DNA of 63,743 nucleotides from Amoebophrya sp. A120 (GCA_905178155.1 CAJINV010000005.1:5793754-5857496), one strand, 5' to 3'; positions 2,241 through 63,433 are shown, counted from the stretch's first letter. Made by a program: numbers and translations. Notes: generated from the sequence alone by a model not told the origin.

Positions 2241-3614
2241 TTATGCATGACGATGACATATTTTTTCACCTGTGTCGATGTCGACCTTGACGCCTCCATA
2301 AAACTGACAGCCGGGGGAAGGGCCGGATAAGCGTCGCCCTTCTCGCTGTCTCTTTTGCAACTGCTCTGTGACTTTGTGCGCTAGCTCCTCGGGCATTGCT
2401 GGGTACTTCTCGGGCACTTGCGGTGGCAAGGGTTTGTATTCGTACCAGTAGGGGTCCTCTTGTGTTACTCCCAGCTGCTCTCGCGCACCGTCGGTAAGAC
2501 GACTTGGTTCCAGTCGACTAGGACTACCCTCCGGCGTGGGTCCTGGTAGTATCTCCTGGAGGATCGGTTCGAAGCGCCGCAAATGCTTTCCAGCTTGCTC
2601 GGCCTGGTAACCTTCCTCGCGTAACATCGAGGACACAGCTGACCCGAACTGCTGCGGAGGAAGTCTCTTCTCCCAATAGTTCGCCAGCGTAGGCGGTCCT
2701 TTTTGATCACCGTCTCGCTGGATGTCGGACCATTTGCCCTTGTTCGAATACCCAACCTCTACGCGAATGTTCAGCGCCCGACTGGTTAGCGCTTGGTACA
2801 GCTTCAGTTTCAGTGCGTTGTCCTTGTGGTGAAACAGGTCGTGCTTCCGGCTATGAACATCCGGCGGGTCTTCGTTGCTCTTTCCCTCCTTTTTTGATGC
2901 TAGTTCATCAGCAAAATACGACAAGGAGCGGCGCTTGAAGTCAAGGAAGGTTGCCCAGTAGTTGTTGGCGAATTTTTCGCGCATTAATAAATCAGCTTTT
3001 CCTTCGCGTTTCAATTGCCGCCACTCTTTTTGCTTGTGCTTATGGTTCTTAATTTGTTCTTGATAGTCGTGGGAGTCGTGCACTATCTGTTCGCTTAGTC
3101 GCCCCTCGGTGATCGCGTTGGCCGCGTCGAAAACCTGCTTGTGGGTTGCAGCGTAGTCGATGGGGAGGCGGTGTCCGTGTAGAATCGCGTCCGCGTCGTG
3201 CTGGGGAATAAGCTCGCTCCAGAGGAGTTTTTGCACTCCTTCCGCGCTTAGACCCGCGGACGTTCGCAAGCCCTGCTTCAAGGTGGGTACTTGTTCGTGA
3301 GGAAATGCGTCGACTCGATTTCCGACAAAGTTGTGTCCGCTCTTCTTTTGCTTTCCCAGTTCATCGACAAACATACCGACTTATGCAGTGCAAAAGTATC
3401 GTACTCGTATAAATTTAAATGCAGGAAGGTCTTGCAGCATTACAAATTTCTTTGTCAAAGGGGCAAATCAGCATTGCAAATTTTTATGCTGAGAAAATTT
3501 GTAATGCATCCATTTATACGAGTACGATACATTTGCAGTTCATACGACTAGGTGCGTCACCGGTTCGGAGTACTTCTTCACCAACTCAGAAACCGAGTAC
3601 AGCTTGTCGGGGCC
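2241..3614 (-). CDS. Hypothetical protein, interrupted by introner 3382-3544
   Basis: 377-aa ORF extends in frame (DKLYSVSELVKKYSEPVTHLVG-MFVDEL) after removing the element plus one CGACT; canonical acceptor tttgtttcatAG at 3615-3616. Confidence 0.65.
3382..3544. mobile_element. Introner family A (TIR TATGCAGTGCAAAAGTATCGTACTCGTAT)
   Basis: ~30-bp TIR; TSD CGACT at 3377-3381 and 3545-3549; excision restores frame. Confidence 0.92.
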
Positions 3615-3889
3615 CTATGAAACAAAAAAAAAAAGCTATAGCTAGCAGCACAATATTTCTGCGAAGCACCTAGCAGTTGCAAAACACGCATTAAAACCGG
3701 CAAGTAGAGGATAAAGCTGTATCATGCAAGACATTCAGAGGAAGCATAGCTTCATGACAATGGATAACGACAATCCTCTTTGCGAAGTAGATGTAGATCC
3801 CCTTTCAGCCTACAGCAGCAATCGCATTGCAAGTCTAGTAGTTTCTTGTCATGCGTCACGCATTCGTGTTGCAGTTGTTGGAGTCGATA

Positions 3890-4702
3890 CTAGAGTGTAC
3901 TTGGGTTTATTAACTGTAGCATTTTTTTCTCGCAGCATAAATCCGTTTCGAACACATGCCGGATGTTGCGATGATGGTGAGAGTGCCCGTTCCGCCCGCT
4001 TCCATGCTTGTTATGCGCTAGGAAGGTGTGGTAAAATCCCTCGCTGAATTCCTTTCGAAAATACTGCAGCTGGGCAAACCGCGCGTCCTTGAAGTCGTGG
4101 ACTATCGCTTCGGTAATGGATTTCACTTTTCGTGACTTTGCCGCCCACTTCCAGTACTCGGTGGCCAGCTTCGCAGCCGTTGATTGCGCTTCGGCGTTCT
4201 TCACGTGGGTAGGGTCCTCTGATGTCGCAAAGAACTGCGCGATGCGCCTCTTTATGTCCACGCCCAGTTCGTACTCCTTATCGCTCTTATGCTGGAAGCT
4301 GCTGTCATCTACTTCCGGTACTTGTTGCCCCGGGGCAGCTGCTGAAGCAGGAGCAGCTGCTCTCGCCGTGCTCGCCGTCCTCCCCGCCGCGGCGCTATTC
4401 CCATTAAGCAGGTTACTCATTCTATCCATCATGGTGGGGTTGCTTCCTGGTTTTTCTTCCCGGGAGGGCCGCTGTGTTCCAGCCGCACCATGCTGCTGGT
4501 GTCCCGCTCGTGCTCCCGTGGTCGTGTGATGGGCGCCAGTCGTCGTGGGTGATTGCACTCTTGCACCTCCACGCGGTTGATGTTGCCCGCCGTTGCCGGG
4601 ATGCGCCCCAGAACCGCTGCTCCTCGGGGTTGCAGCTGCAGGTGGAGTAGGATTACTTCCATACGACGTTCTGCGTCTGGGGGGCATGATGAAAAAAATC
4701 AC
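3890..4702 (-). CDS. Hypothetical protein exon, possibly the 5' part of the 2241-3614 gene
   Basis: 270-aa ORF with a disordered N-terminus and a helical-looking C-terminal half. Confidence 0.5.
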   Translation of the reverse strand: MIFFIMPPRRRTSYGSNPTPPAAATPRSSGSGAHPGNGGQHQPRGGARVQSPTTTGAHHTTTGARAGHQQHGAAGTQRPSREEKPGSNPTMMDRMSNLLNGNSAAAGRTASTARAAAPASAAAPGQQVPEVDDSSFQHKSDKEYELGVDIKRRIAQFFATSEDPTHVKNAEAQSTAAKLATEYWKWAAKSRKVKSITEAIVHDFKDARFAQLQYFRKEFSEGFYHTFLAHNKHGSGRNGHSHHHRNIRHVFETDLCCEKKMLQLINPSTL

Positions 4703-5556: not shown

Positions 5557-7532
5557 TATCAAATGTAAAAGTGTCTGGGTATGGAAGACGCCCAGAAAAG
5601 CGCCGGAAGTGCGTCGCTTTTATTTACGTGAGATTTGCGCGAGATTTGCGCGAGATTTAGAAAATAGTAGGAATATTGCCAAATCCGTCGGGCAGCTTTT
5701 TGAGGCGGGAACCCCCTCCGTGAATATTTTCGAGTATGTTCGCGAATGTGCTTGAGTTGAAAACATTCACGGAGGGGGTTTTCGCCTCAAAAAGCTGCCC
5801 GAGTTGGCAATATTATTAATATTCAGGAATATTTATTGGCGAATATACTTGAAAATATTCACGGAGGGGGTTTTCGCCTCAAAAAGCTGCCCGAGTTGGC
5901 AATATTATTAATATTCAGGAATATTTATTGGCGAATATACTTGAAAATATTCACGGAGGGGGTTTTCGCCTCAAAAAGCTGCCCGAGTTGGCAATATTAT
6001 TAATATTCAGGAATATTTATTGGCGAATATACTTGAAAATATTCACGGAGGGGGTTCTCGCCTCAAAAAGCTGCCCGAGTTGGCAATATTATTAATATTC
6101 AGGAATATTTATTGGCGAATATACTTGAAAATATTCACGGAGGGGGTTTTCGCCTCAAAAAGCTGCCCGAGTTGGCAATATTATTAATATTCAGGAATAT
6201 TTATTGGCGAATATACTTGAAAATATTCACGGAGGGGGTTTTCGCCTCAAAAAGCTGCCCGAGTTGGCAATATTATTAATATTCAGGAATATTTATTGGC
6301 GAATATACTTGAAAATATTCACGGAGGGGGTTTTCGCCTCAAAAAGCTGCCCGAGTTGGCAATATTATTAATATTCAGGAATATTTATTGGCGAATATAC
6401 TTGAAAATATTCACGGAGGGGGTTTTCGCCTCAAAAAGCTGCCCGAGTTGGCAATATTATTAATATTCAGGAATATTTATTGGCGAATATACTTGAAAAT
6501 ATTCACGGAGGGGGTTTTCGCCTCAAAAAGCTGCCCGAGTTGGCAATATTATTAATATTCAGGAATATTTATTGGCGAATATACTTGAAAATATTCACGG
6601 AGGGGGTTTTCGCCTCAAAAAGCTGCCCGAGTTGGCAATATTATTAATATTCAGGAATATTTATTGGCGAATATACTTGAAAATATTCACGGAGGGGGTT
6701 TTCGCCTCAAAAAGCTGCCCGAGTTGGCAATATTATTAATATTCAGGAATATTTATTGGCGAATATACTTGAAAATATTCACGGAGGGGGTTTTCGCCTC
6801 AAAAAGCTGCCCGAGTTGGCAATATTATTAATATTCAGGAATATTTATTGGCGAATATACTTGAAAATATTCACGGAGGGGGTTTTCGCCTCAAAAAGCT
6901 GCCCGAGTTGGCAATATTATTAATATTCAGGAATATTTATTGGCGAATATACTTGAAAATATTCACGGAGGGGGTTCTCGCCTCAAAAAGCTGCCCGAGT
7001 TGGCAATATTATTAATATTCAGGAATATTTATTGGCGAATATACTTGAAAATATTCACGGAGGGGGTTCTCGCCTCAAAAAGCTGCCCGATTTGGCAATA
7101 TTATTAATATGCAGGAATATTTATTGGCGAATATGCTTGAAAATATTCACGGAGGGGGTTCTCGCCTCAAAAAGCTGCCCGATTTGGCAATATTATTAAT
7201 ATTCAGGAATATTTATTGGCGAAAATGCTTGAAAATATTCACGGGGGGGGTTCTCGCCTCAAAAAGCTGCCCGAGCTGGCAATATTATTAATATTCAGGA
7301 ATATTTCTTGGCGAATATACTTGAAAATATTCACGGAGGGGGTTCTCGCCTCAAGAAGCTGCCCGCCTTGGCAATATTGTTAATATTCAGGAACTTTCAA
7401 CGGATTTGGCAATATTCCTAATATTTTTGGAAATCTCGCGCAAATCTCGCGCAAATCTCACGCAAATAAAAAGCATGCATTTGCGGCGCTTTTCTGGGCG
7501 TCTTCCATACCCAGACACTTTTACACTTGATA
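5557..7532. mobile_element. Large family-B TIR element (1976 bp) with minisatellite interior
   Basis: ~130-bp TIRs starting TATCAAATGTAAAAGTGTCTGGGTATGGAAG; TSD TGTTC at 5552-5556 and 7533-7537. Confidence 0.92.
5757..7392 (+). repeat. 92-bp tandem minisatellite, ~18 copies
   Basis: Period 92 (attcagga at 5821 and 5913); units nearly identical, diverging at the right end; one inverted partial unit at ~5689-5743. Confidence 0.97.
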
Positions 7533-8922: not shown

Positions 8923-11900
8923 ACGAAGTTACTCTCCTGCTGCCAAAGCCCCCCGGATCACCATCATGATTTAGATGCTGCTCCTCTAGTTCTTTATGTT
9001 GTAGTGCAACAAGCCCCCCGCTCGCCTGATCAGAACGACTGTCATGCTGCTCTCCACGACCAGCACCAGGTCCATTCGGCCCAATGTGTTGCTCTTGACA
9101 TCTTTGACTATTCCCGTTGGTCTTCAGCGGCGATACGCGACCTGTTTTATTCGTCGTGGTTCCACTTGTGCCACTCCCACTTCCTGTTCCTTTATTTCCG
9201 CCGACATCGAACCGCAATAGCAGTTCCTGCGCCAAGCTGGCTATCAGCTTCTTCGTCCGGACGCAGTACACTTGCCCTCTGACCATCGCTCTCGCATTCC
9301 CGATGGAATAGCAGCTATCCTGTAGTAGAAAAACTGTCATCATCTACAAAGGTCTTATGATGCAAAAGTCCAAGTGGATATAGACTTACAAAGCCTACCT
9401 ATAATTTCGGTTGTTGCATTTATTAATTTTCTGTAGCTCGTCCACCCAAACCGTATTGACAGACTTTAGGAGCCCGCCACCTCGCAAAACAAATTTCCTT
9501 CTTTCCGTGAACGTGCGTTCCTCGTCCTTGCGCAGAAACTACAGAATTCTAAATCGTAATACTGCATGCGGACTGTTGACAAGAGGGACCATTTTTCTGC
9601 AGGATAGCAGCTACAATCGAACAACAACCATTCGTCCGCCCGCCAGTTCCAGGCGTCTTTCTCTTTGATGCCCACGTTGATGTCTCTTATTTCTGTACTA
9701 TGTAATGTCGCTTGCGTGGTTTGCGTTTGTCCGTTCAACATGTGCCGCTGCTCGGAAAAATGAAAACTACTTCGGAAGGAGGGCTCATGAAACCACAAAG
9801 CGTGGTCGAGCGAGACCATATTTTTGACTCTTATCCTGTGTAAAAGCATCGCATTCGTATAAATGCAAGTCTTGCATCACAAATTTTTTTCTGAAGGCAA
9901 ATCAGCATTACAAATTTTATTTTCAATGCATTTATACGAGTACGATACTTTTGCAGTTCTTAATTCTCCTGGTCCGACGATGGTACCCGCCGTTCGGTGC
10001 GAACGCGCAGAGCGCGAGGTTGGTATCCGTCATGTGTGCCAGAACGCTCTGGTGGTACAGCATGTGCTGCGAGTAGAGGTTCTCGCTCGAATTTGATGGA
10101 TCAAGACCCACATTTTTTTTCCCGTCTGCAACACTCGTCGTCGAGACCACATCATCAATCCCGTACTTCGTCTTTACGAACTATGAAAGCCTCAGGTTGG
10201 AAATCATCAAAGTGAAAATAATTTGTAATGCAAAAAAACGCTTCCAGTTGGAGCGCCGTTTCTAGTCGGCGCATGACAAATTTCCCGGGCACTCAAAGCG
10301 TGTCTGTCATGCTAGTTAGGCAAAGGGGTGCCGTTCTCATATGCTAATCAGCAGCCCAATTCTGAACCCGTAGAAGCACAATAAGTAGTCGGCCCCCAAT
10401 GCGTTCTCTGCAATGCAGTCTTTTTGGTGTCGCATTTCATGCATCACAAATTATTTCCACTTTGAGGATTTCCATTCTGAGAGTGTCATACAAACCACAC
10501 CAGCCTGCCAGGGTTATCCCGGGTCCCGCCGGGCCAGTCATCGGAAAGGATCTATCCTGTGCAAAAGTATCGCACTCGTAATTGCAGTCAAGCATTACAA
10601 ATCTCTTTTTAAGGTAAATTCGCATTACAAATTTTATTTCTCATGCTGAGGAAATTTGTAATGCATTTATTATACGAGTACGATACTTTTGCAGTTCATA
10701 GGATCGTTACTGGCCTTATGTCCAGCGGCGTGGGGCCGCCACGGAAATCCCGGTGGTTTTTTACGTCGATCTCGTCAACACGGGTCGTGGAGGAAGTGGA
10801 AGATGAACTTCCGGCGTCATGGCTAGGCGCTGCAGGAGCTCCTTTGATGTTGTGCTTAGTATTTTTCTCCACGTCTACTTTGTCCTTCCCATACACTTTC
10901 AGAAACGAGGCAAAAATCACTTCGTCATATGGCTTCAGGCTGTTGATGGCACGTTGCTCTAGTTCTTCCTTGTCGGAGGTTGAAGATGACGCAGCTCCTG
11001 TGTGGTCGAGCATCAAGCTGCTCCTGCCGACGTCCGAGCCCATCATCCCACCTGCAGCTCTTTCAGTCGGCGGAACAGCAGCGCGCGTGGGATCGAGATC
11101 GTGGGTCTTGTTTTTCCCCTGCTGCAATACCGCCAGCACATCCGCCGGGAACTGTTCGCAGTAGGAATCGGAAGGAGCAGGAGGTCGTGGAGTGCCATTT
11201 GGTCTTGTTCTACTATCGGTGCCGCTAAAGATGTCCTCAGGGTAGTGTGCAGCACTTTCACCTCCTCCTTTTATTGCAGCTTTGCTGGTACTACTAGATG
11301 CAGCTGTGGTGCGTGTGCCATCTCCCACTTCCTCTGCTGCCTGACTGGACACAATGCACGAGAAAATCACCCTGCCCTTCTATTAAATGGAAAAATCCCC
11401 CCACCCCATATCAAACACGAAACTTGTGATGCTGTATTTGGGTACACAAATCGACTTGTAGTGCTAGAAGGCCAAGAGCCGCAGTTGTGACCTCGTTTGC
11501 AGGTAATTTGCAATGCTGTTTCCCACTTCCAGTTGCTTCCTGTCATGCTGAAGATGCAAGGCTTCCCCACGCCCCCCAGCACTACAGTCCGCATCTTTTC
11601 CACCCTTCTAGCATGACTAAGCTGATTTGTAACTGCAAATCTGCATCACAGATTTCCGTTTTGATATGGGGAGGGGGGATTTTTCCTCACAATACCTTCT
11701 GCAGCGCGTCCACGCATCTCGTCGAAAAAGACCGGCCGTCGCGGATCACCCGCACGCGGTACGTTAGGTCTTCCGAGAGCGACCCCGTTCCCAGAAAGTA
11801 CGCGTGCAACGAGTGGGCGGTTTTGCGCTGAGGATTGTTTTTTTTCAACGTGGTCGCGAAATGGTAATGGAGATTGATGTCTACTGTGAATTATATCTGA

Positions 11901-16684: not shown

Positions 16685-17916
16685 TCAAGCTGTGTTGTTT
16701 GTGTTGTCACTGCTGGCAGCCAACGAAATTTCGAGACAAACCGGATCGCCTTCGCGGTACGGAGTTTGTTGTTCTCTAGAGCGCAGTATCAAATGCAAAA
16801 GCGTCTGGGTCTGGAAGAATGCATGTTTGTCATGCTTGTCTGGCATGAATCTTTGAAATCTGTCATGCACGTTACCCAAGAGCTCCATTTTTCTGTGATG
16901 CAGAAACGCAGTTTGTCATGCAGAATAGGCAACACCTAGAAGCTCAGAAACTTGTCATGCTAAGCCAGCACTTGTGGCCTCATCATGAGACGCCACCCAG
17001 CATCACAAGTTTCCAGACCCAGACATTTTTACATTTGATACGCAGGACAGACTTCGTTCTTGTGCAGCCGGACGAGAACCTCTGCTTTTTCTGGTTCTCT
17101 GTGTCCCCGAAGAACCAAACGCTGCCGCTCAATGCGACCTCCACGAATCTTTGGATATCCACTGCAAAAGAATCGTACTCGTAGTAATTGCAAACATGCA
17201 TTACAAATCTTATTCTCTTAAGGTAGATCAGCATTACAAATTTGATCTCTCACGCTGAGGAAAAAATTTGTAATGCATTTATACGAGTGCGATACTTTTG
17301 CAGTTCATATTGCAGGCCCGCTCGCAACGGGTTCAGCAGGACGCCGTTATTTGTCACGTGACTGATTTCCTGTGCAAAAGTATCGTACTCGTACTAATTG
17401 CGTTTATGCATTACAAGTCGTGTTTGTTAAGGCAAATCCGCATTACAAATTTAAAGTTGTAATGCTAAGTCCATTTGTAATGCAATTTATACTAGTACGA
17501 TTATACCTTTGCAGTTCATAACTGCTCGTTGAAAACAATAGCGAGGCTTTGCTGTATTGTCTCGCCGTGGAAAGAATGACTTTGTCACGGAGGCTACTCG
17601 TCGAAGTTGTAACAATAGAAGAAGATGAACTGCTGTTCACCGAGGAGAGCACACGATCTCCCACCTCCAATTCGATCAGCTTATACCGCCACTGATAAAT
17701 GGTTTCATCCAGAATCTTGTCGTAGCAAGAGGTGTTTGACGTGTTGCTACTCGATAAAGTCGCTGCTGTCTTGGTCTTGCTCCCGGTCGCAGCTGCTCCC
17801 GTCGTCGTTTCTGGTTTAGAAGCAGTTGTCTCGTCGCTGGCCTGTATTTCGTTTGTAGTGGTGCTTCGCTCGTGTTCTTGTTCTGCTTCCCAGGCGGCTC
17901 CGCGTTGACTGTCCAC
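16685..17916 (-). CDS. Hypothetical protein (~217 aa or longer) with three introners
   Basis: Joins FSTSS-HVTNNGVLLNPLRAGLQ-RFVEVAL..KSVL-RSREQQ all in frame. Confidence 0.7.
16787..17040. mobile_element. Introner family B
   Basis: TIR TATCAAATGCAAAAGCGTCTGGGTCTGGAA; TSD CGCAG; near-identical inverted copy at 58896-59147. Confidence 0.93.
17156..17309. mobile_element. Introner family A
   Basis: TIRs; TSD TTGGA/TTGCA. Confidence 0.88.
17366..17520. mobile_element. Introner family A
   Basis: TIRs; TSD ACTGA/ACTGC. Confidence 0.88.
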
Positions 17917-18073
17917 AGATGCAGCAGCATTAGGATCATATCGTGGTCGGGCCGAAATGGTATGAGTTTGGAAAACCTGTGATTGTTTTTTTTTTTTTTC
18001 GCTTCTGGAGTTGTAGAGTACTATCTATGGAGTGCAGCATTCATTCAAAGGAGGCACAAGAAGAATGAACTCT

Positions 18074-20021: not shown

Positions 20022-20473
20022 AACGTACCAAATACTTGATCACTCCTATTCACACGTCAGCATGACAAATTCATATAGCATTCTCTTCACTTAGGTCGTT
20101 GGCAAAATCGGTGATGCATACATTTCCTGTGAATGATGTGATGTAGATGTTGATGTACGGGTGCTGGAAGTGCAACTTTGTATTGCATAACTGCTTCCAG
20201 CTCAGCCCGTACTTCTCGCACTTCGTCAGACCGCGTCCGCACCTTCGACAGCTCGTTTTCTGCAGGTTCCTATGCATTGCAAGTCAAGTAGTAAGTATCG
20301 CTCCTATCGTACTTCTTGATGCACTTCTACGTACCTGAACAAGTTGCACGATGCATTTTCCCAAAGGTCGGAAAGAGAAAAGTGGAATTTGCCACGCAGG
20401 TGCAGACTTGGGTGAGAAACCAAATCTGCCATGCAAAAACCAAAAACGCAGAAATTTTACTTAAAGTTAAAAA

Positions 20474-21319
20474 TTATATGCAGCTAGAGACTACCACTAC
20501 CACTACTTTTCTTGCAGACGATATTTCCTCCGGTATTTCTGTGGCCGCCCCCGCAGTGCTCCTCCTCCTCCTCCTCGTGCTGGTCGTGTAGTTTATTTTC
20601 TCTGTTGGCGGAAGATTTCTTTCCTTGGGCGGATCTTGCTTCTGAATTTCTTGCTTTTCATTTTCTCGCTCGTTGTGTTGCTCAGCACTTCTCTTACCCG
20701 GGCTGTGGTCAATATTTTGCGACGTCCTCACCAGATGATCTTCTTCTTCCTCCCAGCTACCTGTCTCTAGCAAGTCGTCGTGCAGCAGCTCCAAGTGGGA
20801 TGATGTGACGCTATTCGATGGAAGCGGTAGGTGGAGACTTTTTACTGCAGACAGCCCCGACGTCCTCTCGTGAAAATCTTCACGAAGTAGTAGATCCTTG
20901 AGGTTGGGAACACAAACAGGATCGGGGCGGTTGCTGTTTTCTACTATTGCTACTGGAACAGGAGGCGCAGTTCCTGCTACATCGATTTTGTTGTTGTCTA
21001 TTTCATCACCTCCTGCTGCGTCCCCGTAGTTTTTCAGTTGTGCCTCGACGATTTGCTTCAGTTTTTCGCGCGAAAACGGTGCCGGCATGGTCTTTTTTGG
21101 CATATCCACGACATGACGGGCTGCCGGGAAGAAGTTCTTGACTTGCTCCGCCCCTTCTCCTCTTCTATTTGCCGACTCCGTCGGAGATTCATCTTGATGA
21201 TCATCTTCCTGCGCTCGTGCTGGACCTGCTGCACCTCCAAAAGCCAAAACCTCCTCCACATGCTGCTTTCCCACGAAAATGCTCTTCTTGTATGATGTCG
21301 TCCCTCGCTCGATCTCCAA
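20474..21319 (-). CDS. Hypothetical low-complexity protein exon
   Basis: 281-aa acidic ORF, probably part of a larger multi-exon gene. Confidence 0.55.
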   Translation of the reverse strand: MEIERGTTSYKKSIFVGKQHVEEVLAFGGAAGPARAQEDDHQDESPTESANRRGEGAEQVKNFFPAARHVVDMPKKTMPAPFSREKLKQIVEAQLKNYGDAAGGDEIDNNKIDVAGTAPPVPVAIVENSNRPDPVCVPNLKDLLLREDFHERTSGLSAVKSLHLPLPSNSVTSSHLELLHDDLLETGSWEEEEDHLVRTSQNIDHSPGKRSAEQHNERENEKQEIQKQDPPKERNLPPTEKINYTTSTRRRRRSTAGAATEIPEEISSARKVVVVVVSSCI

Positions 21320-21546
21320 AGCCCGCAGCTGCAGCCGCCGTCGGTACGCGTCGATGTCTTCTGAGTGGTCTTCTTCTTGGTGTTATGCAATACAAATTTC
21401 GATTTAATACCGGCGTCTCCGCGTTCCCAATGCATCACAAAAGTTTGTATTTCCTAGAGCATGCCACTTGTATATCTATCAAGCTTTCTAGGATCTGCGG
21501 GGAAACTTTTTTTATGCAGAGACCGCAGCTTTTTGTTTTTCTTCGT

Positions 21547-24777: not shown

Positions 24778-25088
24778 AGTACTATTGCTCCCCGGCAGCG
24801 CCGGATGAACTCCGACGGGGCGTTTCTTAGTCGCTGGCTCGTGTTTAGTCAGGTATGGGGACGACGAAAAAGCAGGTCCTCGTGCAGCAGGAGCTGCTTG
24901 CTATGACAGGAAAAAAACGTTGCTAGTGTAAATTTGTGATGCGCAACATGCAAGGTGATTGCGTCTGTCATGCTTGGCATGCGTCGTAGGGTCCATCAAA
25001 GGGCGTTTTCACGTACTATCTGCGCATGACAGGGTTTTGCTGTCATGTCAGACAAATTTGCAATGCTAATCCTCCAAGAAAGTTACAC

Positions 25089-50696: not shown

Positions 50697-51520
50697 TTAC
50701 CTGTTGATTCCATCAAATCCCGCGGAAGCAGCTCCCGGGGCATCTTGGTGCTGCCCTCCGGCGGTAGTGGTTGGCACGGCATGGGCGTGCGGATGCTGCC
50801 AAGAAGGATAAGCCGTGGACAATTCCACACTATTCACGTTAGTGACACCGTTAGCACCAGCACTATGACCATGGTGCTCAAGCCCTGCTCCACCAACGTT
50901 TTTACTGTGTAAATGCACCGCTTTCTCAATGTGTTGATGCACGTTGACCGCCGCGGATCCGAACAAAGTGGCATTACCGCCGGCATTGTTTATTCCCGCA
51001 TTTCCACCCGCATTTCTCTCAAACTGCAATTCCGCGGACGGACTAAGCCCCCTAGACGCTACTAACGCCTTTCGCATCAACAAGAAGTTATCGACTTCCG
51101 GCTCTAAGCTGTTCGCTTTCACCACCCGCATGCCGAGAGATAATTCTAGCCGTTCTTGATCCACGATGGCGTTCGCTTTTTTGGTCCGTTCCAATTTGTG
51201 CTTCAAAATTTTCAGCTCACTCGCCTTTCTCGTGTTTTTTTCGCCGAAAGTGTGTTTCGTTTCGTTCACCTTCATATGCATTGCAAAAGTATCGTACTCG
51301 TATAAACGCATGACAAATTTCTTCAGCATGAGAGATAAAATTTGTAATGCGGATTTACCTTAAAAAGAAGATTTGTAATGCATGATTGCAATACGAGTAC
51401 GATACTTTTGCACAGGATACTTCTTCGCGAGGAGTTCGATTTCTTCCTCGATTTGCTCCTCCTTCTCGAGCAGTTGCTCCAACTCGATTTGCATGTCGGG
51501 GAGTTCCTGTTGCTCCAGAT
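50697..51520 (-). CDS. Coiled-coil protein exons joined across introner 51275-51419
   Basis: IELEQLLEKEEQIEEEIELLAKK-VNETKHTFGEK..LKHKLER in frame. Confidence 0.65.
51275..51419. mobile_element. Introner family A
   Basis: TIRs; TSD CTTCA/CTTCT. Confidence 0.9.
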
Positions 51521-51742
51521 GATGGATTATGCAACACAAATTTATTCCCGTACATGTACCATATGCATGACAATAAACTTCGCTGAAAACTTGGAGCGTC
51601 AAAGTTGGCATGCTGACCAAGATTGAAGGCAAGTTTTGTCATGCAGAAGCAGCATTTGTACGTATACGGGAAATTATTTACTGTGGATATGGATCTCCTG
51701 CTGAATTTGTTTCACCTGGTGCTGGAGTGTTAGAAAAGACTG

Positions 51743-52064
51743 TATCAAAATGAAAAATCCTCCCACCCCATATCAAAACGGAAATTTGTGATGCTGATTT
51801 GGGGCCACAAATCAGCTTTGTATTGCAGAGAGGCACTGCGGCCAGGACCCCAGGCTAGGTAGAGGCGCACGTGTCTAGCTGTTCAGCATGGCAAACGACT
51901 CCCCTTTAGGCCCAGCAGCATGGCAAATTGCTTTCATAATGGGGCGGAAGCTTCTGCCCTTGTCTTCTTGCAAGACAGATGTGATTTGTGACCTCAAATC
52001 CGCAACACAAATTTTTCTAAACTTACCTTTTCAATATGGGGAGGGGGGATTTTTCCTCTCAATA
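51743..52064. mobile_element. Introner family C (322 bp)
   Basis: TSD GACTG; inverted same-length relative at 60636-60957. Confidence 0.92.
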
Positions 52065-53860: not shown

Positions 53861-55824
53861 TCACGCCTGGGCCGCCGCGGCCACCTATCCTGTGCAAAAG
53901 TATCGTATTGCATTTATGCATTACAAATCTCTTTCTCAAGGTAAATCAGCATTACAAATTAAATTTGTAATGCTGGGGGAATTTGTAATGCATTTATACG
54001 AATACGATGCTTTTGCAATTCATACCACCGCCGCGCCGCCCATGCAGAAGCAGAACACGATTATGCAATGCAAAAGCATCGTACTCGTACGAATTGTAAC
54101 CATGCATTACAAATCTTAGTCCTTAGCCAAATCAGCATTACAAGTTGCATTTTTGTTCTTGGAAAAATTTGTCATGCAATGACTACTAGAACTAGTACGA
54201 TACTTTTGCAATGCATAACGATGACGCCAATGCAACAGAGAAGAGGGATCAGGGTGAGCCAAATGATCATGCAGTAGCACTGGTAGGCCAACGCTTCGAC
54301 GCTGGCGTTCCACGCGTCGAGCGCCGCGATGTACTCCGGGTCATTGACGTATGGATGTGTCAGGATTGAAATCGACAAAGTTGAAATGATTTGCCATGCA
54401 TAAAATGCAAGGCATGCAGTGCCTGTGTTGCCGGGATGGCGAGTGAGGCAGATTGTGAGCCTATTTAAGAAGCACGACAAAAGCAGTCTTCTGTGCCCAA
54501 ACAGCATGACAAATTGGATTTCGGTGCGCCGAAAATTTGTCATGCGCCGCTTGGAAATTGGTCTTCCAACTGGTAGCCATGTTATGCATGGCAAATCATT
54601 TCAACTTTGTCGATTTCAAACCTGACGCTTCCATATCACGCCAAGTGCGTAAGCACTCGGGTCGGGTTCCGTCTTGGCGAGCAAGGTGTCACCATCGATA
54701 ACCGCATCAACATCCGAGTCAGCACGAAGATGCTTTTTGTTTTGCACAACTGCTGTCGAACTCTTCGCACCTTCGGCGGTTTCATGCTTCTATCATGCGG
54801 AAAAAAAGAAAAACCGTCCCCACCTCCGCAGAGCTGTGGCCATGCACATTTCGATTTATTGCAACTAGTGGAACTGGAACACTTGTAAAAATGCGCATGC
54901 TCCCACGACCTATGAGACGAGGCATTTCTGGTTGTGTGTTGGTACTATATGCTGTAAACAGGACATTTGATCATGCGGCCGTCGGTGCTAAGAAAAGGAC
55001 CAGCACCACTGTGGTGCGCGACTCTCACAAGCACTTGGTGATCTTTTGCGCTGCAGATTTGTTCCCATTATGAACACTCTGATCGTGTGGGGACGGCGCT
55101 TTTAAACATTTTACACAGGATAGCTTTTGCCCCATAATCATCGTCGCCAGCGCCTGCTGCTCCTGCAAGTTCTTTTTCGCTTTGTTCATGGACAAAACCT
55201 TGCTCATATCAAAGAAAAAAGTGTCAACGTTAAAAACGGTTTTCACAGATTGCAGCTATGCATGACAAGTTTTGCCTAGCATGCGTGCTATGCAATACAA
55301 ATTGAAATTTGGCCAGCTTTTCTGATGCATTTAGCATTACTGCATCACAAATTAATTTCGTTAACATTAACAGTTTTTCCAGGGATAGCTCACGACATTC
55401 ACACTTTCCTTGTTCGACGCGCCCAGTTTTTTTGTCCCAGCCCGACCAGCTTTGTTCATCGCTTCTTCAACAGCCGTTTTCTTCGTAGCCGTCGCGTGGG
55501 AGTGGTCCAAGACGAGTTTGGATGTACCCATAGACATATGCAGTGCAAAAGTATCGCACTCGTATAAATTGCATGACAAATTTGCTCAGCACTACAAATG
55601 AAACTTCTCATGCTGATTTACCTTGAGATAAAGATTTGTAATGCATCATGACTGCAAGAATTACGACGAGTACGATACTTTTGCACAGGATAAGACAGCG
55701 CATTGGCGGTGCCGAGGAAATGTTGAGAGGTTCCACCCGCGATCGCGAGGAGCAAGAACAGTCGCCTTGACGAAGAGCAACTGGATGCAACCGCGGAGAA
55801 AAACGTCGCGGGTAATAAAGCCAT
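53861..55824 (-). CDS. Small membrane protein (~227 aa): hydrophobic N-terminus, C-terminal Cys-rich TM helix; six introners
   Basis: All six joins in frame (684 nt); ends EPDPSAYALGVNDPEY..CYCMIIWLTLIPLLCCIGVIVFCFCMGGAAVAAAAQA*. Confidence 0.8.
53886..54024. mobile_element. Introner family A
   Basis: TIRs; TSD CCACC. Confidence 0.92.
54062..54217. mobile_element. Introner family A
   Basis: TIRs; TSD ACGAT. Confidence 0.92.
54350..54635. mobile_element. Introner family H
   Basis: ~54-bp TIR; TSD TGACG/TCACG. Confidence 0.9.
54791..55122. mobile_element. Aged family-E introner
   Basis: CGTCCCCAC / GTGGGGACG; TSD GCTTC/GCTTT; join MGQK-HETAEG. Confidence 0.8.
55207..55387. mobile_element. 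Introner, distinct TIR (TATC...GAAAAA.TGTYAAYGTTAA)
   Basis: TSD GCTCA; join NVVS-KVLSM. Confidence 0.85.
55537..55692. mobile_element. Introner family A
   Basis: TIRs; TSD AGACA. Confidence 0.92.
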
Positions 55825-56913: not shown

Positions 56914-58469
56914 TCACCCCCGCGGACAACACGAGGCAAGAGTGCAAAGGTATGCATTGCAAAAGCATGATCGCGCTGCGATGTAGTAATCGCATTTACA
57001 ACACAACAAGCTCGACAAACGAAATCTGTCATGCTTATTCACCTTGATGGAAAGGCGATTGGGATTGCGATTACTACGAGCGCGACATTACCTTTGCACA
57101 GGATAAACAACAGCACAAGACGATCCCGATAATAATCAGGAGGGGGATCGTATCCATCGGAAATATTATTTCCCGCACACGTACAAAATATTCCGTAAGT
57201 ATCTGCATGACAATAACGGGTTTCCTGCAAACCTATTCAGTATGACAAATGGCATGCGGGGTCAAGTTCAAGTTGCTGCTGCTGGGAAAATGAGAAATTC
57301 AAATTTGTGAGGCATTTTTACTAATGTGTACGTGTGCGGCAAATTTTTATTTGTAGTCCATAGACCGCAACAACGGTAATGATGATGGCGTAGCAGCAGC
57401 AAGCGGCTGCCTTGACTTTTTCGTCGAATTTTTCCTTCGCCTCGATGTAATCCGGATCATCTATCAGAGTGCACAACTCCCCCTCCCCCTCATTTGCTTT
57501 TGCATGTTGGCATCAACAGCATTACAAACACCAGAACAGGTGGACCCTGTGCATGACAAGTTCATGTGGCGGGTGTGTAGTACTGTTTGGCTTTGGACTT
57601 CCGGAATTTGTCATGCACACTGCGCCACAAAGCAGCAACTGGATTGGTGTTCTTGCGTGACAAATGAAGGGAAGGAGAACGGGGAGTTGTGCACTGTCAT
57701 ATCATCCTCGCCCTTCGGATAATCAGAAGGATCCGGCTCCTGCAGGTGGAGGTTTTTGCGTATCCCGTGTAAAAACGTTCCCACCTGAGAGCTGTCATGC
57801 AGATTTGCAATGACAAGAACATTTGTGATGCGCAGCCCCATGTTGTTGACAGGCATTTCCTATCGTGTTTTGGAATTTCTAATGCTGCGAACAGAGTAAT
57901 CAGCTGGGTTTGTCGTGATGCGGCTGTCCTTGCTAACCTGCACTACATTACGGGTCATGCGTGACTAACAAAGCTTCTAGGTTTCTGTTGCAAAATCCCC
58001 ATCTTGACTCGTCTGGGGTGGGGACGCAGCTTTTCCTCAGGATATTGCGCAAGTCTTCACTATTCACCGTGAAAGTTACACCGGGTCGTCGACGCTTATG
58101 AACTGCAAAAGTATCGCACTCGTACTAAATTGCGTTTACGCATTACAAATCTGTTTTTTAAGGCAAATCCGCATTACAAATTGAATTTGTAAAAATGCTG
58201 AGTCCATTTTTGTAATGCAATTTATACTAGTACGATACTTGCTTTTGCAATGCATATCGCTCCTCCTCGTCGTCGTTCCCACCAGTCGCCTGGAAGGTAC
58301 CCACCGCAAGTTGGATCCGCTCCCCCAAGGTGAGACGGGTGCGGTGATGTACCATCGTGCCCGTGTTCGTCGCGGTGGAAGTCTTCTTCAGGACTTTGGT
58401 TTGATGTTCCTGATAGAGTTTATTTTGCCGTTGCAAGCTAATTCCATTTTTTGAAATAAGTAGGTACAA
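56914..58469 (-). CDS. Paralog of 53861-55824; small Cys-rich TM protein with five introners
   Basis: In-frame joins give QEPDPSDYPKGEDDPDY..CCCYAIIITVVAVPLLIIIGIVLCC..; 5' end uncertain. Confidence 0.78.
56951..57105. mobile_element. Aged family-A introner
   Basis: TATGCATTGCAAAAG..TTTGCACAGGATA; TSD eroded (AAAGG/AACAA). Confidence 0.75.
57151..57362. mobile_element. Introner family I
   Basis: CCGCACACGTAC / GTACGTGTGCGG TIR core; TSD GATCG/GACCG. Confidence 0.85.
57462..57701. mobile_element. Introner family D
   Basis: TIRs; TSD TCATC. Confidence 0.92.
57761..58044. mobile_element. Introner family E
   Basis: TIRs; TSD TTGCG. Confidence 0.9.
58097..58256. mobile_element. Introner family A
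   Basis: TIRs; TSD ACGCT/TCGCT. Confidence 0.9.
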
Positions 58470-58741
58470 AACAACCGAACAGAAATGAAAAACTCATGCT
58501 GGATGATGATGTCGACCTCGACGTCCCTAGCCATTTTCAATCATAAGGAATAAGCAGTTTATGCAGGTTATTTCGCAGAGTATGTTCTTTTACTTACCTG
58601 AGTGACGAGATCCATGCTCACCCTCACGGCATGAGCAAACAAAGTCTATCCGAATGAAAAAAATCTTGTCCTTCCCACGACCTCAAAACTGAAATCCCCT
58701 TGTTTCCACTTCCAGCCATTCCATGCATAATGCGCTATACA

Positions 58742-59211
58742 TCAAACCCCACGCAGCGCAGCCTTCATGGAATTGGAGATGATTTCTTTCTCTACTGCAA
58801 AAGCAGCTGGTCGAAAGATGAAAAGTGACGATCGCGAGCAAGAAGATTTTTTCACCTGGGATACAGCGCAATTCATGCCCATTCCCGCCACGACCTATCA
58901 AATGCAAAAGTGTCTGGGTCTGGAAACTTGTGATGCTGGGCGGCGTCTCATGATGAGGCCACAAATGCTGGCTCAGCATGGCAAGTTTCTGAGCTTCTAG
59001 GTGTTGCCTATTCTGCATGACAAACTGCGTTCCAGCATCACAGAAAGATGGAGCTCTTGGGTAACGTGCATGACAGGTCTAAGAGTCATGCCAGACAAGC
59101 ATGACAAATATGCATTCTTCCAGACCCAGACACTTTTACATTTGATACGATCGCACTGAGCATGATCTTCCGGAAGGCGGAAGATGTCGAGAAGGAGAAA
59201 GACGGCACCAT
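58742..59211 (-). CDS. Short signal-peptide-like ORF, possibly the 5' exons of the 56914-58469 gene
   Basis: MVPSFSFSTSSAFRKIMLSAI-VAGMGMNCAVSQ after excising 58896-59147. Confidence 0.45.
58896..59147. mobile_element. Introner family B
   Basis: TIRs; TSD CGACC/CGATC; inverted near-copy of 16787-17040. Confidence 0.92.
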
Positions 59212-60547: not shown

Positions 60548-61615
60548 TTACGCTTGCCAAAGCCAAAAAAAAACAAAAATCCCGATGATGGCTAGGACGA
60601 CAATGACGATGGCGACCACGACGGCGATCCACCAGTATCGAGAGGAAAGATCCCCCCTCCCCATATTGAAAAGGCATGTTGCCGAAAATTTGTGTTGCTG
60701 ATTTGAGGTCGCAGATAGCATTTGTTTTGCAAGAAGGCAAGGGCAGAAGCTTCCGCCCCATTATGGAGGCGATTTGTCACGCTGTTGAACCTAAAGGGGA
60801 GCCGCTTGCCATGCTGAACAACTAGACGCATACGCCCCTACCTAGCCTGGGGACCTGACTGCAATGCTTTCCTGCAATACAAAGCTGATTTGTGTACGCA
60901 AATCCAGCATCAGAAGTTTCGTTTCGATATGGGGAGGGGGGATTTTTCCTTTTGATAACCAGGTGCATTTGTTTTGATCCAAATCACAATCCACGGTCGG
61001 CGTACACCCTCTTTTCATGTCGGCCGAGGACGGGTCATCCGGGTATTTTTCCTCGTCGTGCGGTAAGCATTTGATCTTATTGTCTGGATTTTTCTCGTTG
61101 AAGCCCCTCACCAAATCCTTGCACAGAAACTTGCACTCTGGTCCACCCGGGCACCCGTCGAATCCTTGTGCGATCGGTGTCGGGGGTATCCAGGAAAAAA
61201 CATCCATCCCCTTCCATTTTTTGCATGACAGATAGTGGATTTCATGCATGTTCTGCATGACAAATTGGATGGGGATGGGTGTTTTTTCCTGGATAGGGGG
61301 GTTTTCGCCCTGGTAGCACTGATGTCGGTCGTCGTTCTGTGGCGTTGGGGTGCCGGTACGTCGGCCAATCTTGTTTCTCTGCATGTTGTGGTAATTCATG
61401 TCGATCTCCAGCTTCTGTTGCCGGAATTCGGTTCTCGTCGTCTTCCCAGTTTCCGTTTTCCTGCCCATTCCGAAGAGGACGAGCTTGTGGTCAAATAAAA
61501 GTACATTCCGAAAAGTCGTAGTCAGCAAAAATGCCGCGACAGAACCGCCAAAAAAGGAACAGAAGGGGCCGCGTCGCGGCTTTATGGTAGCGCTGCGAAC
61601 AATGGGGGTGGGCAT
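60548..61615 (-). CDS. Small Cys-rich protein with C-terminal TM helix (~208 aa), two introners
   Basis: Excision of 60636-60957 gives NKCTW-WIAVVVAIVIVVLAIIGIFVFFWLWQA*. Confidence 0.78.
60636..60957. mobile_element. Introner family C
   Basis: TIRs; TSD ACCAG. Confidence 0.93.
61187..61295. mobile_element. Minimal introner family G (109 bp)
   Basis: TIR TATCCAGGAAAAAACAYCCATCCCC; TSD GGGGG. Confidence 0.92.
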
Positions 61616-61900
61616 GATTGGAGGTACTCTAGCGGAGGACCGCTTGTTCTTTGGGCGGGGGTTTATTTTTCATTTCTTTGGGGCTGTTGCTGGTCCATGT
61701 GCGTACTTAAGTAGTTTTGTCGCGAATGACCTATGCCTTTCTTGCTACCTCTTTAGTGTCCTTACTGACGAAACCAAACAAATTGCTTTAACCGAGGAGG
61801 CCGTCGCAGATTATTCTTTCGTGCCGACGATGACGAAGCACGTCAGTAAACAAAAAAGGCGAAGAGCAGTAGTACGAGCCTCCCGAGTTTTCTTTGCGCT

Positions 61901-63220
61901 TTAATACCGAGGAGCTGCGCCAATTTTGCCGCGGCCACTGCAAGAACGAGGAAGATGAAACCGATTAAAGTGAACCTCACCGCGTAGCACACTTCTCATG
62001 ATAAGAACCGAATAGCAACGAAATTGGTCGTTTGGGAATGTCGTGTCGTGCGATTCACAGTTACTGTGCGCGATTGGTTTGAAAATGTGAACGAGCACTA
62101 CTCCCGGCGCACGCCCCGCGACAGGGTCCGCGGCGTCGGCAACATGAGCGAGCGAGGAGATGAAGTTATCTCGCGCGGATTCATGTTGACTGCCCACCGG
62201 GTGGTCTGACCAAAACTCATTTAGCATTTGATGCACATCTCCCAGCCATTTCCTGAAATCTGCAGCGGTCGTTTCACCCTGCACTCGGAGCGGGCCCCAA
62301 AGAGTGCTCCGAGTGAATGCAAGTGTCGGGAACCCGGTGCCCCACACGGAGCGTTCGCCGCTCTGCTCATCTTGCTGCGCACCAAATACGTCCAGGCTCA
62401 ATTGGCCTAACAAGGTTTCGAGGGCGGCGAGCGGTTCGCTGACTTTGCTAATTTCGCTTTTAAGCTCTTGCCTTGCTTTGTCAAGCCACGTCTCGAGATC
62501 GTTCAGGCTTGGCACGGCCTCGTGAGGTCCGGCTTTCTCCTCGACGGCCGGGATCTCCCGGATGATGGCGGAGCTGGCAGCTTCAAAAAAATAAACTGCG
62601 TCAAGCAATTTCTCGGTGGCAACATGAATTTTCCGCACATATTCCTTGTCACGTGCGAGATCAGAAACCCACTTCCGCAGCTTCTGGTCTTCGTCCGCCT
62701 CGCTCGAAGACGCGGTCGACCTGTGCAGCGTCTTCTGCAGAAAATTGGCGCTTTCCCCTTCTCGCCGATTGCTGGGAGCAAGAACTTCTACATTGCCGTC
62801 CACATCCACTTCCGCCGGTGCTGCAGAGGTGCTGTCGGAGGGAGCCGTCTGCCCGCGCCGAGCAAGGAAGGGCCTCTTCCTGTGGTCGGAATGAGTGGAA
62901 GTGGTGGAGGTCGAGCTCTTCTCGGCTTCGTCCTCTAGTTCCTCGCCCGTGTTGCGAGGGCGGCGAGCCAGGAAGGGCTTCTTCGCCTGGTCAGCGCCGG
63001 CGTCGACAGAGGTCGTGGAGGCTTTCGGCGTCGTGCGGCGGACCGCCTGCACCACTCCAGTCGCGTTCAACATCATGGACCCGAAGCCAGCGGCGGAGGC
63101 CGCGGCGCCGGCGGCCGTGGCTTTCTTGTTCCGCACGTGACAAGAACCGTAGTCCCGACCCAGTTTTTGGTAGCGCTGCATCACCACCTGCTTGCGCTTG
63201 CCGGCCCGCTTCGCATAGCC
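61901..63220 (-). CDS. Hypothetical protein, 3' exon
   Basis: 470-aa ORF whose first ~31 codons lie inside a family-D element; helical-looking C-terminal half. Confidence 0.65.
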   Translation of the reverse strand, partial: GYAKRAGKRKQVVMQRYQKLGRDYGSCHVRNKKATAAGAAASAAGFGSMMLNATGVVQAVRRTTPKASTTSVDAGADQAKKPFLARRPRNTGEELEDEAEKSSTSTTSTHSDHRKRPFLARRGQTAPSDSTSAAPAEVDVDGNVEVLAPSNRREGESANFLQKTLHRSTASSSEADEDQKLRKWVSDLARDKEYVRKIHVATEKLLDAVYFFEAASSAIIREIPAVEEKAGPHEAVPSLNDLETWLDKARQELKSEISKVSEPLAALETLLGQLSLDVFGAQQDEQSGERSVWGTGFPTLAFTRSTLWGPLRVQGETTAADFRKWLGDVHQMLNEFWSDHPVGSQHESARDNFISSLAHVADAADPVAGRAPGVVLVHIFKPIAHSNCESHDTTFPNDQFRCYSVLIMRSVLRGEVHFNRFHLPRSCSGRGKIGAAPRY

Positions 63221-63433
63221 TATAACAGTGCACAACTCCCCCTCCCCATCATCTGTATAGCATGAACCAACGGCAACACAAGCATCAGAAAGAATGCCGG
63301 TTTTGCATGACAAATTGGCACTGGAATATAGTGGTATTTGGACTACCAGAACTTGTCATGCAAACAGGGCCACGAGGCAAAGCGAAAGCGTGGAGTGGGT
63401 ATTTTGCATGACAAATGTGGGGGAGGGGGAGTT
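63221..63433. mobile_element. Family-D introner with interrupted right TIR
   Basis: Aligns to 46374-46591 but breaks after GGGGGAGTT. Confidence 0.8.

What the first reader, a model, noticed from the sequence alone, without database searches (positions are those of the whole stretch)
3382..63433. Window-wide invasion of coding exons by TIR/5-bp-TSD introners that mostly cannot be GT-AG introns
Seen: more than 30 elements from at least 9 families sit inside ORFs, with TAT...ATA ends and a 5-bp TSD. In every join checked by hand, removing the element plus one TSD restores the frame. Sliding the junction through the TSD gives GT-AG for only three (11381, 37364, 53886) and GC-AG for one (35518). 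Several TSDs (sense CCCCC, AACAA, CAAAC, CTTTT, TCCAT) offer neither GT nor AG. Known: non-canonical IR/DR introners have been reported in Amoebophrya, but their removal mechanism is unresolved as far as I know. Inference: precise removal is guided by the TIR stem or TSD rather than by splice dinucleotides.
Basis: partly seen in the sequence, partly recalled or inferred. Interest (0 to 1): 0.92.

Follow-up and report, generated by a model that had tools for sequence, protein, structure and literature searches.

The report
Transposon introns cut at fixed register
This is DNA of the marine parasite Amoebophrya A120, whose genes are riddled with already described hairpin transposon introns; transcript contigs lack them exactly, and diverged flanking repeats place the cut one base before and four bases after each element, likely read by a splicing machine that has stopped caring about the usual GT-AG ends.

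Summary
Observation confirmed; the system is published. Window exons match Amoebophrya sp. A120 proteins at 100%, and the elements are the introner elements of Farhat et al. 2021 (TAT, 7 nt, A-run). I curated 50 genic elements (26 with perfect 5-bp TSD); only 3 of 50 can slide to GT-AG. Contigs of one RNA-like run lack element+5 nt at 14 of 14 element joints shown; in-silico splicing reproduces contig lengths 10,692 and 1,374 exactly. Added here: where the TSD copies differ, 21 of 21 informative junctions (8 RNA, 13 annotated protein) fit one register only: intron = N-TAT...ATA-NNNN. The paper calls the border variable or unknown. The TSD match is dispensable, both orientations are removed, U+2/A+3 are invariant in 50 of 50, A-7 in 262 of 262, and G-U pairs are not favoured. 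Best reading (0.55): a spliceosome with relaxed end nucleotides reading transposon-end sequence and counting from a candidate branch A at -7; no lariat evidence exists. The scan noted similar introns in other dinoflagellates.

The parts
732..939 (-). old introner, TSD copies share 1 of 5; intron uniquely A-TAT...ATA-NNNN (k=4)
   Evidence: P0004 mapping
1946..2300 (-). old introner, 3' triplet ATG; k>=3
3382..3544 (-). introner, 150-nt family, perfect TSD
3616..3939 (-). introner, TSD 2 of 5; k 3-4 (predicted before the protein was fetched)
5557..7532 (.). 1,976-bp element of the same end type with an internal 92-bp tandem array, perfect TSD, not in an ORF found here
9316..9606 (-). introner in acyl-CoA thioesterase gene P0002
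9832..9962 (-). introner, TSD mismatch at position 4; k>=4 (predicted first)
10182..10490 (-). introner, mismatch silent in the protein
10553..10700 (-). introner, 150-nt family
11381..11694 (-). introner, the only one GT-AG at k=4
16787..17520 (-). three introners (16787-17040, 17156-17309, 17366-17520) in gene P0001; 17366 k>=1, 3' triplet AAA
19983..20189 (-). introner, 3' triplet ATC, perfect TSD
20271..20523 (-). introner, mismatch at position 5; k<=4
21384..21590 (-). introner, mismatches at 4 and 5; k<=4 (k=5 would make a stop)
21906..22167 (-). introner, perfect TSD
24902..25111 (-). introner, perfect TSD
25375..25585 (-). introner, TSD 2 of 5; k 3-4
30800..32731 (-). four old introners in gene P0005 (30800-31263 k>=3, 31454-31765 k>=4, 32060-32258 k>=2, 32378-32731 k>=2)
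33345..33563 (-). introner, sense TSD AACAA; removal and frame not tested
35518..35770 (-). introner; RNA contig pieces join across element+5
37364..37893 (-). two introners (37364-37643, 37720-37893); removal shown by piece ends and length sum together with GT-AG intron 37987-38292
39596..40704 (-). introner carrying a nested 843-bp TAC...GTA element (39628-40470, own 5-bp TSD); removed whole by piece end and length sum
41092..41597 (-). two introners (41092-41271, 41362-41597 with 3' triplet ACA); removal by piece end and length sum
45070..45350 (-). introner, sense TSD TCCAT; removed (piece end plus 78-nt exon)
45434..45712 (-). introner, mismatch at position 4; RNA keeps upstream base, k>=4
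46374..46591 (-). introner, sense TSD CTTTT; contiguous RNA join
51275..52064 (-). three introners (51275-51419 k>=1, 51528-51689, 51743-52064)
53886..54217 (-). two introners (53886-54024, 54062-54217), RNA joints 144 and 161 nt
54350..54635 (-). introner, mismatch at position 4; RNA joint 291 nt, k>=4
54791..55692 (-). three introners (54791-55122 k>=1, 55207-55387, 55537-55692 in the opposite orientation to 53886)
56951..57362 (-). two introners (56951-57105 TSD 2 of 5, 57151-57362); both k>=3
57462..58044 (-). two introners with perfect TSD, RNA joints 245 and 289 nt
58097..58256 (-). introner, mismatch at position 5; RNA keeps downstream base, k<=4
58647..58863 (-). introner, TSD 2 of 5; RNA join is a hybrid of both copies, k 2-4
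58896..59147 (-). introner, mismatch at position 2; k>=2
60636..60957 (-). introner, RNA joint 327 nt
63221..63433 (-). element cut off by a repeat or assembly break near the window end

Best explanation
These are the non-autonomous TIR-transposon introns of Amoebophrya A120, removed from the RNA as element plus 5 nt with the cut one base before the 5' TAT and four bases after the 3' ATA, likely by the ordinary spliceosome with relaxed end nucleotides. Steps: (1) inferred - a cut-and-paste transposase working in trans inserts short elements with a 5-bp staggered cut, in either orientation, even into each other; (2) shown - transcript contigs lack element+5 nt, in both orientations, whether or not the two TSD copies still match; (3) shown for 21 junctions, inferred for the rest - the mRNA keeps TSD bases 1-4 from the upstream copy and base 5 from the downstream copy; (4) inferred - because the ends are inverted repeats, either orientation offers the same signals: U+2, A+3, U+4, G/C+5 as a 5' splice site without its G, a U-run at -15 to -18 and an invariant A at -7 as candidate branch point, from which the 3' cut would be counted; the long hairpin would help bring the ends together but would not set the cut by itself.
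For: Identity: P0001 and P0002 are named Amoebophrya sp. A120 proteins, 100% identical to window exons. RNA: 14 of 14 element joints among the 15 shown (20 in all) skip element+5; record 9 has no mismatch or gap in the six pieces shown and also lacks a GT-AG intron, and the spliced model is exactly 10,692 nt; DNA-like run X1 contigs run from exon into element ends. Register: k=4 violates 0 of 21 constraints, k=3 five, k=5 seven; chance under a uniform register 0.006 for the 8 RNA junctions, 7e-7 for all 21; two protein tests that could have failed were written down first and passed. Orientation: family members in opposite orientations are both removed (53886/54062/58097 vs 55537; 57761 vs 45434; 51743 vs 60636). 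Sequence asymmetry: +2 T and +3 A 50 of 50 in the window; -7 A 262 of 262 (window plus 212 strand-called metagenome elements) while its mirror +4 changes 6 times; +2/+3 change 3 times against 12 at -5/-6. TSD position 4 (intron base -1) is C/G-rich in 111 of 160, position 2 in 86 of 160 (p=0.006), a skew that follows transcription. The nine commonest A120 non-canonical motifs in Farhat Table S4 all have T second, and A25's are all TT with IRs starting TTA plus two purines. Nearly all spliceosomal proteins and U2, U4, U5, U6 are reported present in A120. Branch A at -6 to -8 has precedent (BP-AG 2-4 nt). A divergent spliceosome handles MITE-derived non-canonical introns in Fritillaria.
Against: No lariat, branch point or spliceosome dependence was observed; the enzyme is inferred. 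RNA evidence is Logan contigs of one run whose kind is guessed; X7 showed no joint and X9/X10 covered only element fragments. 13 of 21 register constraints come from annotated proteins, which depend on an aligner and gene predictor. The asymmetry tests are post hoc with small counts (p about 0.03 each); 3 of 212 metagenome elements break U+2/A+3, one with a confident strand call (L064). The window's own 26 perfect TSDs show no position-4 skew. The context of A-7 fits yUnAy in a minority (T at -9 in 18 of 50). U1 snRNA was not detected in A120. Most elements fold into strong end-to-end hairpins that would bury both signals (z below -3 in 29 of 36). Both terminal dinucleotides are free, which goes beyond the tunicate case.
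Confidence: 0.55

Rival explanations
1. A non-spliceosomal, structure-guided nuclease plus ligase recognises the end-to-end hairpin and makes a staggered cut 1 nt before and 4 nt after the stem, releasing a circle or linear RNA, as proposed for euglenid nonconventional introns.
For: Fixed geometry relative to the stem; strong hairpins, first pair +2/-5 or +1/-4 in 29 of 36 folds, while 4 of 5 canonical introns have no end-to-end pairs; orientation independence; U1 not found; euglenid precedent with circles.
Against: No G-U over A-C excess in sense stems (29 vs 23; 116 vs 119), poor pairing at +5 to +8, and unequal conservation of paired partners (+2/+3 vs -5/-6, -7 vs +4); U+2 A+3 shared with A25 despite different TIRs; no Y|R junction or CAG/CTG motif.
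Confidence: 0.25
2. A surviving or hybrid minor (U12-like) spliceosome removes them, since N-TATCC resembles the U12 5' site RTATCC and U12 introns tolerate odd termini (consensus recalled, from no call).
For: 14 of 48 rows start N-TATCC at k=4; Physarum U12 introners have inverted repeats.
Against: +5 is G in 27 of 50; U11, U12, U4atac and U6atac reported absent in A120; no U12-type branch motif seen in the end profiles.
Confidence: 0.07
3. The TSD itself guides the join (pairing or slippage between the two repeats), with the cut anywhere inside it.
For: 26 of 50 TSDs are perfect, so their register is invisible; Farhat et al. describe variable borders.
Against: Exact removal with 1-2 of 5 matching bases; one register fits 21 of 21.
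Confidence: 0.04
4. The joins are reverse-transcriptase template switches across hairpins at direct repeats, not splicing.
For: Hairpin plus short direct repeat is the classic setting (PMC2923612, abstract); the evidence is cDNA-derived contigs.
Against: Removal is needed for the frame (3,325-aa ORF, thioesterase domains); 48 of 50 retained introns would shift or stop the frame; joins are exact where the repeats have decayed; the joined form is the main contig.
Confidence: 0.03
5. The elements are excised from DNA (programmed or polymorphic), and X3 is DNA without them.
For: X3's kind is only guessed, and X1's joint table was cut and crowded by repeats, so rare empty sites could be missed.
Against: X3 also lacks GT-AG introns (58408-58597 joint; 306- and 211-nt sums) and thins out between genes; X1 contigs continue from exons into element ends in all 8 pieces shown.
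Confidence: 0.03

Closest known systems
Introner elements (IEs) / non-canonical introns of Amoebophrya sp. A120 (Farhat et al. 2021, PMC7789003)
   Same: Same genome; IR motif TAT + 7 variable nt + A-run; 3-5-nt direct repeats; multi-copy families; RNA-supported non-canonical junctions; hairpins.
   Different: [quoted passage not shown]
Introners of Amoebophrya A25 (same paper)
   Same: IR/DR non-canonical introns; top motifs all TT-NN with IR starting TTA plus two purines, i.e. U+2 A+3 again (inferred from Table S4 and text).
   Different: Different end sequence; the TIR appears to begin at +1, not +2; not tested here.
MITE-derived non-canonical introns of Fritillaria borealis (PMC13326754; review PMC11282704)
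   Same: TIR/TSD transposon introns removed by a changed U2 spliceosome.
   Different: Preferred termini AG-AC/AG-AT with YAY signatures and duplicated U2AF; here both terminal dinucleotides are nearly free.
Euglenid nonconventional introns (review PMC11282704)
   Same: End-to-end stem at fixed, unequal offsets from the junctions; TSD-like repeats; MITE origin proposed; mechanism unknown.
   Different: Stem motif CAG/CTG at +4..6/-8..-6 and Y|R junctions there; TAT/ATA at +2..4/-7..-5 and no Y|R here; circles shown there, untested here.
Symbiodinium / Polarella introner-like elements (bioRxiv 10.1101/2020.10.14.339549, passages)
   Same: DNA-transposon introns in dinoflagellates using TSD bases as splice-site bases.
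   Different: 4-nt TSD, inverted repeat ending at the 3' splice site, GC/GA 5' sites; the preprint has no mention of Amoebophrya.

Membership tests
Amoebophrya A120 introner elements | lies in the A120 genome | tested here: met
   P0001 and P0002 named A120, 100% identity to window exons
Amoebophrya A120 introner elements | IR starting TAT, seven variable nt, then at least three A | tested here: met
   TAT at +2..+4, A-run at +12..+15 in 40-45 of 50 per position; definition
Amoebophrya A120 introner elements | 3-5-nt direct repeat at the borders | tested here: met
   26 perfect and 13 four-of-five 5-bp repeats among 50
Amoebophrya A120 introner elements | repeated families | tested here: met
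   six multi-copy groups in the window; 31 window elements have near full-length hits in metagenome loci, up to 97%
Amoebophrya A120 introner elements | RNA-supported removal with non-GT-AG ends | tested here: met
   14 of 14 element joints shown; 3 of 50 can be GT-AG
MITE (non-autonomous TIR transposon) | short, TIRs, fixed-length TSD, no coding capacity | tested here: met
   the one metagenome copy of 500 nt or more has only 86 stop-free codons
MITE (non-autonomous TIR transposon) | cognate autonomous element or transposase | tested here: inconclusive
   none among 134 TIR matches in 125 loci, 46 without a partner end in reach; no genome held; Farhat reports none in A120, PMC12130899 reports an integrase-like TIR family
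U2 spliceosomal intron | GT (GC)-AG termini | tested here: not met
   1 of 50 at the fixed register
U2 spliceosomal intron | lariat through a branch adenosine; spliceosome dependence | not testable with these tools
   only a candidate invariant A at -7
U12 intron | RTATCCT 5' site, U12 branch motif, minor snRNAs | tested here: not met
   TATCC in 14 of 48, +1 free; minor snRNAs reported absent; consensus recalled
Euglenid nonconventional intron | stem joining both ends | tested here: met
   predicted folds
Euglenid nonconventional intron | CAG/CTG at +4..6/-8..-6 and Y|R junctions | tested here: not met
   end profiles and TSD composition
Euglenid nonconventional intron | excised as full-length circles | not testable with these tools
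   no raw reads of this strain were available

The most novel reading that the evidence does not exclude
A120 has a splicing activity that ignores both terminal dinucleotides and measures from the transposon's own ends (1 nt before, 4 nt after), so that any insertion of these elements, at any target and in either orientation, is born a perfect intron; in the boldest form the activity is a spliceosome-independent hairpin nuclease-ligase.
Probability: 0.25. Interest if true: 0.9.

Novelty: already known. Interest (0 to 1): 0.58.

Why it matters
The elements and their odd borders are published, so the window is not a discovery of a new system. What the follow-up adds is a rule: the published account leaves the true borders unknown and the mechanism open, while a single register turns about 30,000 repeated introns (figure from the paper) into a defined substrate with a 5' N-UAU start, a 3' U-run and an invariant A at -7. 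That gives a direct test (where is the branch, or is the product a circle?), explains how a transposon can invade exons in either orientation without harm, and would correct annotations that slide such junctions to GT-AG or GC-AG. I did not find the register in the text read, but Figure 3 and Figures S19-S25 of Farhat et al. are images I could not see and Table S4 already hints at T in second place.

Tried and rejected
No whole genome was held, so no genome-wide register count and no transposase search. No RNA holder is on record for the stretch; X3 is RNA by guess and by lacking canonical introns. X7 gave 63 short pieces and no joint. A homologue search for the 2.2-kb exon at near lengths found nothing; the protein is 1,278 aa and came later. 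Of five written predictions, three were tested and met, one (32378) was void because I used a wrong frame, one (41092) was never tested. Two mismatches (17156, 10182) are silent and were left out of the 21. False elements 18660-19000 and 32098-32221 dropped. G-U versus A-C test of RNA-level stem selection: negative. The shared motif GCATNACAA was considered as a branch point and rejected: it has no fixed distance to the 3' end and occurs about equally on both strands (252 vs 276). No orthologous exon, hence no empty site, among 125 metagenome loci. Viral contigs: no match. Rfam: 0 matches. Pfam: only P0002 of 10 proteins has families. PMC13685798 gave no usable branch-point passage.


Full report
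What is there. The window is eukaryotic DNA with all genes that I resolved on the minus strand. A scan for TA...TA ends, a perfect 5-bp direct repeat and terminal complementarity passed 25 of 604 candidates against 0-2 of 250-284 in five shuffles. A relaxed scan, reading of the sequence and mapping of annotated proteins gave 50 genic elements, 26 with perfect, 13 with four-of-five and 11 with weaker repeats, besides a 1,976-bp element, a nested element and a cut-off one. Two candidates proved false and were dropped (18660-19000; 32098-32221). Elements made up 21% of the window in the set.

What it is. Two window exons retrieved proteins named Amoebophrya sp. A120 at 100% identity; P0002 is an acyl-CoA thioesterase split by five elements and one GT-AG intron. 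Farhat et al. 2021 (PMC7789003; abstract, passages, the last third of the results, section 16, supplement text part 3 and legend passages; no figures) define A120 introner elements by an IR starting TAT, seven variable bases and an A-run, with 3-5-nt direct repeats, 29,850 copies in 1,954 families. The window's ends match that definition position by position. The system is therefore known.

Removal is at RNA level and exact. Logan contigs of run X3 (kind guessed RNA) were laid on 33001-53000 and 51100-61500. Of 20 joints, 15 were shown: 14 skip an element plus 5 nt and one is a GT-AG intron. Record 9 (10,692 nt; six pieces shown, no mismatch or gap) joins directly across 35518 and 46374 and its piece ends and gaps add up to exact removal of seven more elements and one GT-AG intron; splicing the window in silico gives 10,692 nt with a 3,325-aa frame, 1,374 nt for record 2 (contig 1,374) and 2,500 nt for record 10 (contig 2,501, aligned to position 2,500). 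X1 contigs run from exons into element ends in all 8 pieces shown. With the annotated proteins, 48 of 50 elements have RNA or protein support, 61187 has an indirect sign (the 224-nt side of the neighbouring joint stops at its TSD) and 33345 has none. Limits: one run, contigs only; X7, X9 and X10 did not cover the junctions.

The register. Where the two TSD copies differ, the mRNA shows which base is kept. Let k be the number of upstream TSD bases kept. RNA contigs: 45434 and 54350 k>=4; 56951 and 57151 k>=3; 58896 k>=2; 54791 k>=1; 58097 k<=4; 58647 k 2-4. Annotated proteins: 732 k=4 alone; 3616 and 25375 k 3-4; 9832 and 31454 k>=4; 20271 and 21384 k<=4 (k=5 makes a stop at 21384); 1946 and 30800 k>=3; 32060 and 32378 k>=2; 17366 and 51275 k>=1. 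Only k=4 fits all 21; k=3 fails 5, k=5 fails 7; the chance under a uniform register is 0.006 for the RNA set and 7e-7 for all, before a factor of up to six for choosing k afterwards. The outcomes at 3616 and 9832 were written down before the proteins were seen. So the intron is N-TAT...ATA-NNNN. Farhat's Figure 3 legend calls the sites variable and the border unknown, although the nine commonest A120 motifs in Table S4 all have T second, as this register requires. It follows (inferred) that 37364, 53886 and 35518 are not GT-AG or GC-AG in the cell.

What guides the cut. Not the repeat: copies sharing 1-2 of 5 bases are removed exactly (56951, 58647 in RNA; 732, 30800, 31454, 32060 in proteins). 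Not orientation: members of three families are removed in both orientations. The ends fold together (z below -3 in 29 of 36 elements folded, one of them the false 32098; 4 of 5 canonical introns have no end-to-end pairs), but the stems show no G-U over A-C excess (29 vs 23 in the window, 116 vs 119 in relatives) and pair poorly at +5 to +8. To enlarge the sample I used 125 metagenome loci holding the same families: 363 elements, 0 in two 100-kb shuffles; 329 unique with flanks, 212 with a strand call, 7 of 212 able to be GT-AG. Across 262 elements A-7 never changes while its mirror +4 changes 6 times; +2/+3 change 3 times (none in the window) against 12 at -5/-6 (p about 0.03 each, post hoc). 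TSD position 4, the last intron base, is C/G in 111 of 160 against 86 of 160 at the mirror position 2 (p=0.006; the only one of 13 positions below 0.01), though the window's 26 perfect TSDs do not show this. A symmetric transposase cannot make skews that follow transcription, so the RNA machinery likely reads sequence at both ends.

Mechanism. U+2 A+3 U+4 G+5 is the core of a spliceosomal 5' site without its G (recalled consensus); A25 seems to share U+2 A+3 with a different TIR. A branch A at -6 to -8 has precedent in Yarrowia, Candida guilliermondii, Trichomonas and Giardia (PMC2483917, passages). A120 is reported to keep nearly all spliceosomal proteins and U2, U4, U5, U6, but U1 was not found. 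Fritillaria shows that a changed U2 spliceosome can remove MITE introns (PMC13326754, abstract and one results section; review PMC11282704, passages and section 6). I put 0.55 on a relaxed spliceosome with a -7 ruler, 0.25 on a structure-guided nuclease-ligase as discussed for euglenids, 0.07 on a U12-like machine, and 0.03-0.04 each on TSD guidance, template switching (PMC2923612, abstract) and DNA excision. No step of the chemistry was observed.

Novelty. The elements, their TSD/TIR anatomy and their non-canonical removal are in print. Related strains AT5 and Kv splice GT-AG (PMC12005148, passages; PMC11453091, passages). PMC12130899 (passages) assigns A120 introners to several transposon classes; the Symbiodinium/Polarella preprint (passages) does not mention Amoebophrya. 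Five searches showed no paper stating a fixed register, but the library lacks most subscription journals and the figures of Farhat et al. (Fig. 3, S19-S25) were not visible and may bear on this. Earlier notes of this scan describe similar hairpin introns in other dinoflagellates (unchecked); none exist for this genome. Verdict: already known system, with a new and testable rule for its borders; interest 0.58.

Noticed in passing
window, all element families; loci L001-L125: A motif GCATNACAA (either strand) is shared across unrelated families: 91 hits in 13.3 kb of elements against 8 in 50.4 kb outside; 753 in 86 kb against 298 in 316 kb in the loci. Often about 40-50 nt inside each end; likely a binding site of the mobilising protein.
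   Followed up: partly
window 5557-7532 and 7978-8928: A 1,976-bp element with very long inverted ends and a 92-bp tandem array; the stretch behind the N at about 7977 repeats its right end and flank, probably an assembly duplication.
   Followed up: no
window 39628-40470: An 843-bp TAC...GTA element with its own 5-bp TSD nested in another element; the 1,114-nt whole is removed from the transcript by piece end and length sum.
   Followed up: partly
window 11831-12757, 15100-15900, 30400-30600: GC-rich stretches with short inverted repeats, one inside a 927-nt GT-AG intron of the thioesterase gene; possibly another repeat class.
   Followed up: no
window 18624-18957: A GT-AG intron that begins with the element motif, perhaps an old element converted to canonical ends.
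   Followed up: no
window 32985-33328: A further degenerate element-like stretch between 33345 and gene P0005; the upstream exons of this cysteine-rich repeat protein are unresolved.
   Followed up: no
window 63433-63743: The last element breaks off into a copy of sequence near 62070 and a 76-bp tandem repeat with internal palindrome; likely a scaffold join or subtelomeric repeat.
   Followed up: no
loci L001-L125 (contigs JACKZZ01...): A metagenome assembly holds a relative with the same element families at up to 97% identity and similar GC; no exon orthologous to the window among these loci.
   Followed up: partly
runs X9, X10 on window 40478-40704, 37558-37615, 45475: Raw RNA reads of runs under the same species label carry element pieces joined to unrelated sequence, so related elements are retained in some transcripts of those samples.
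   Followed up: no
P0006: A 126-aa relative of the cysteine-rich gene whose start matches sequence that is intronic in P0005, suggesting a relative with the same insertion read through by a gene caller.
   Followed up: no
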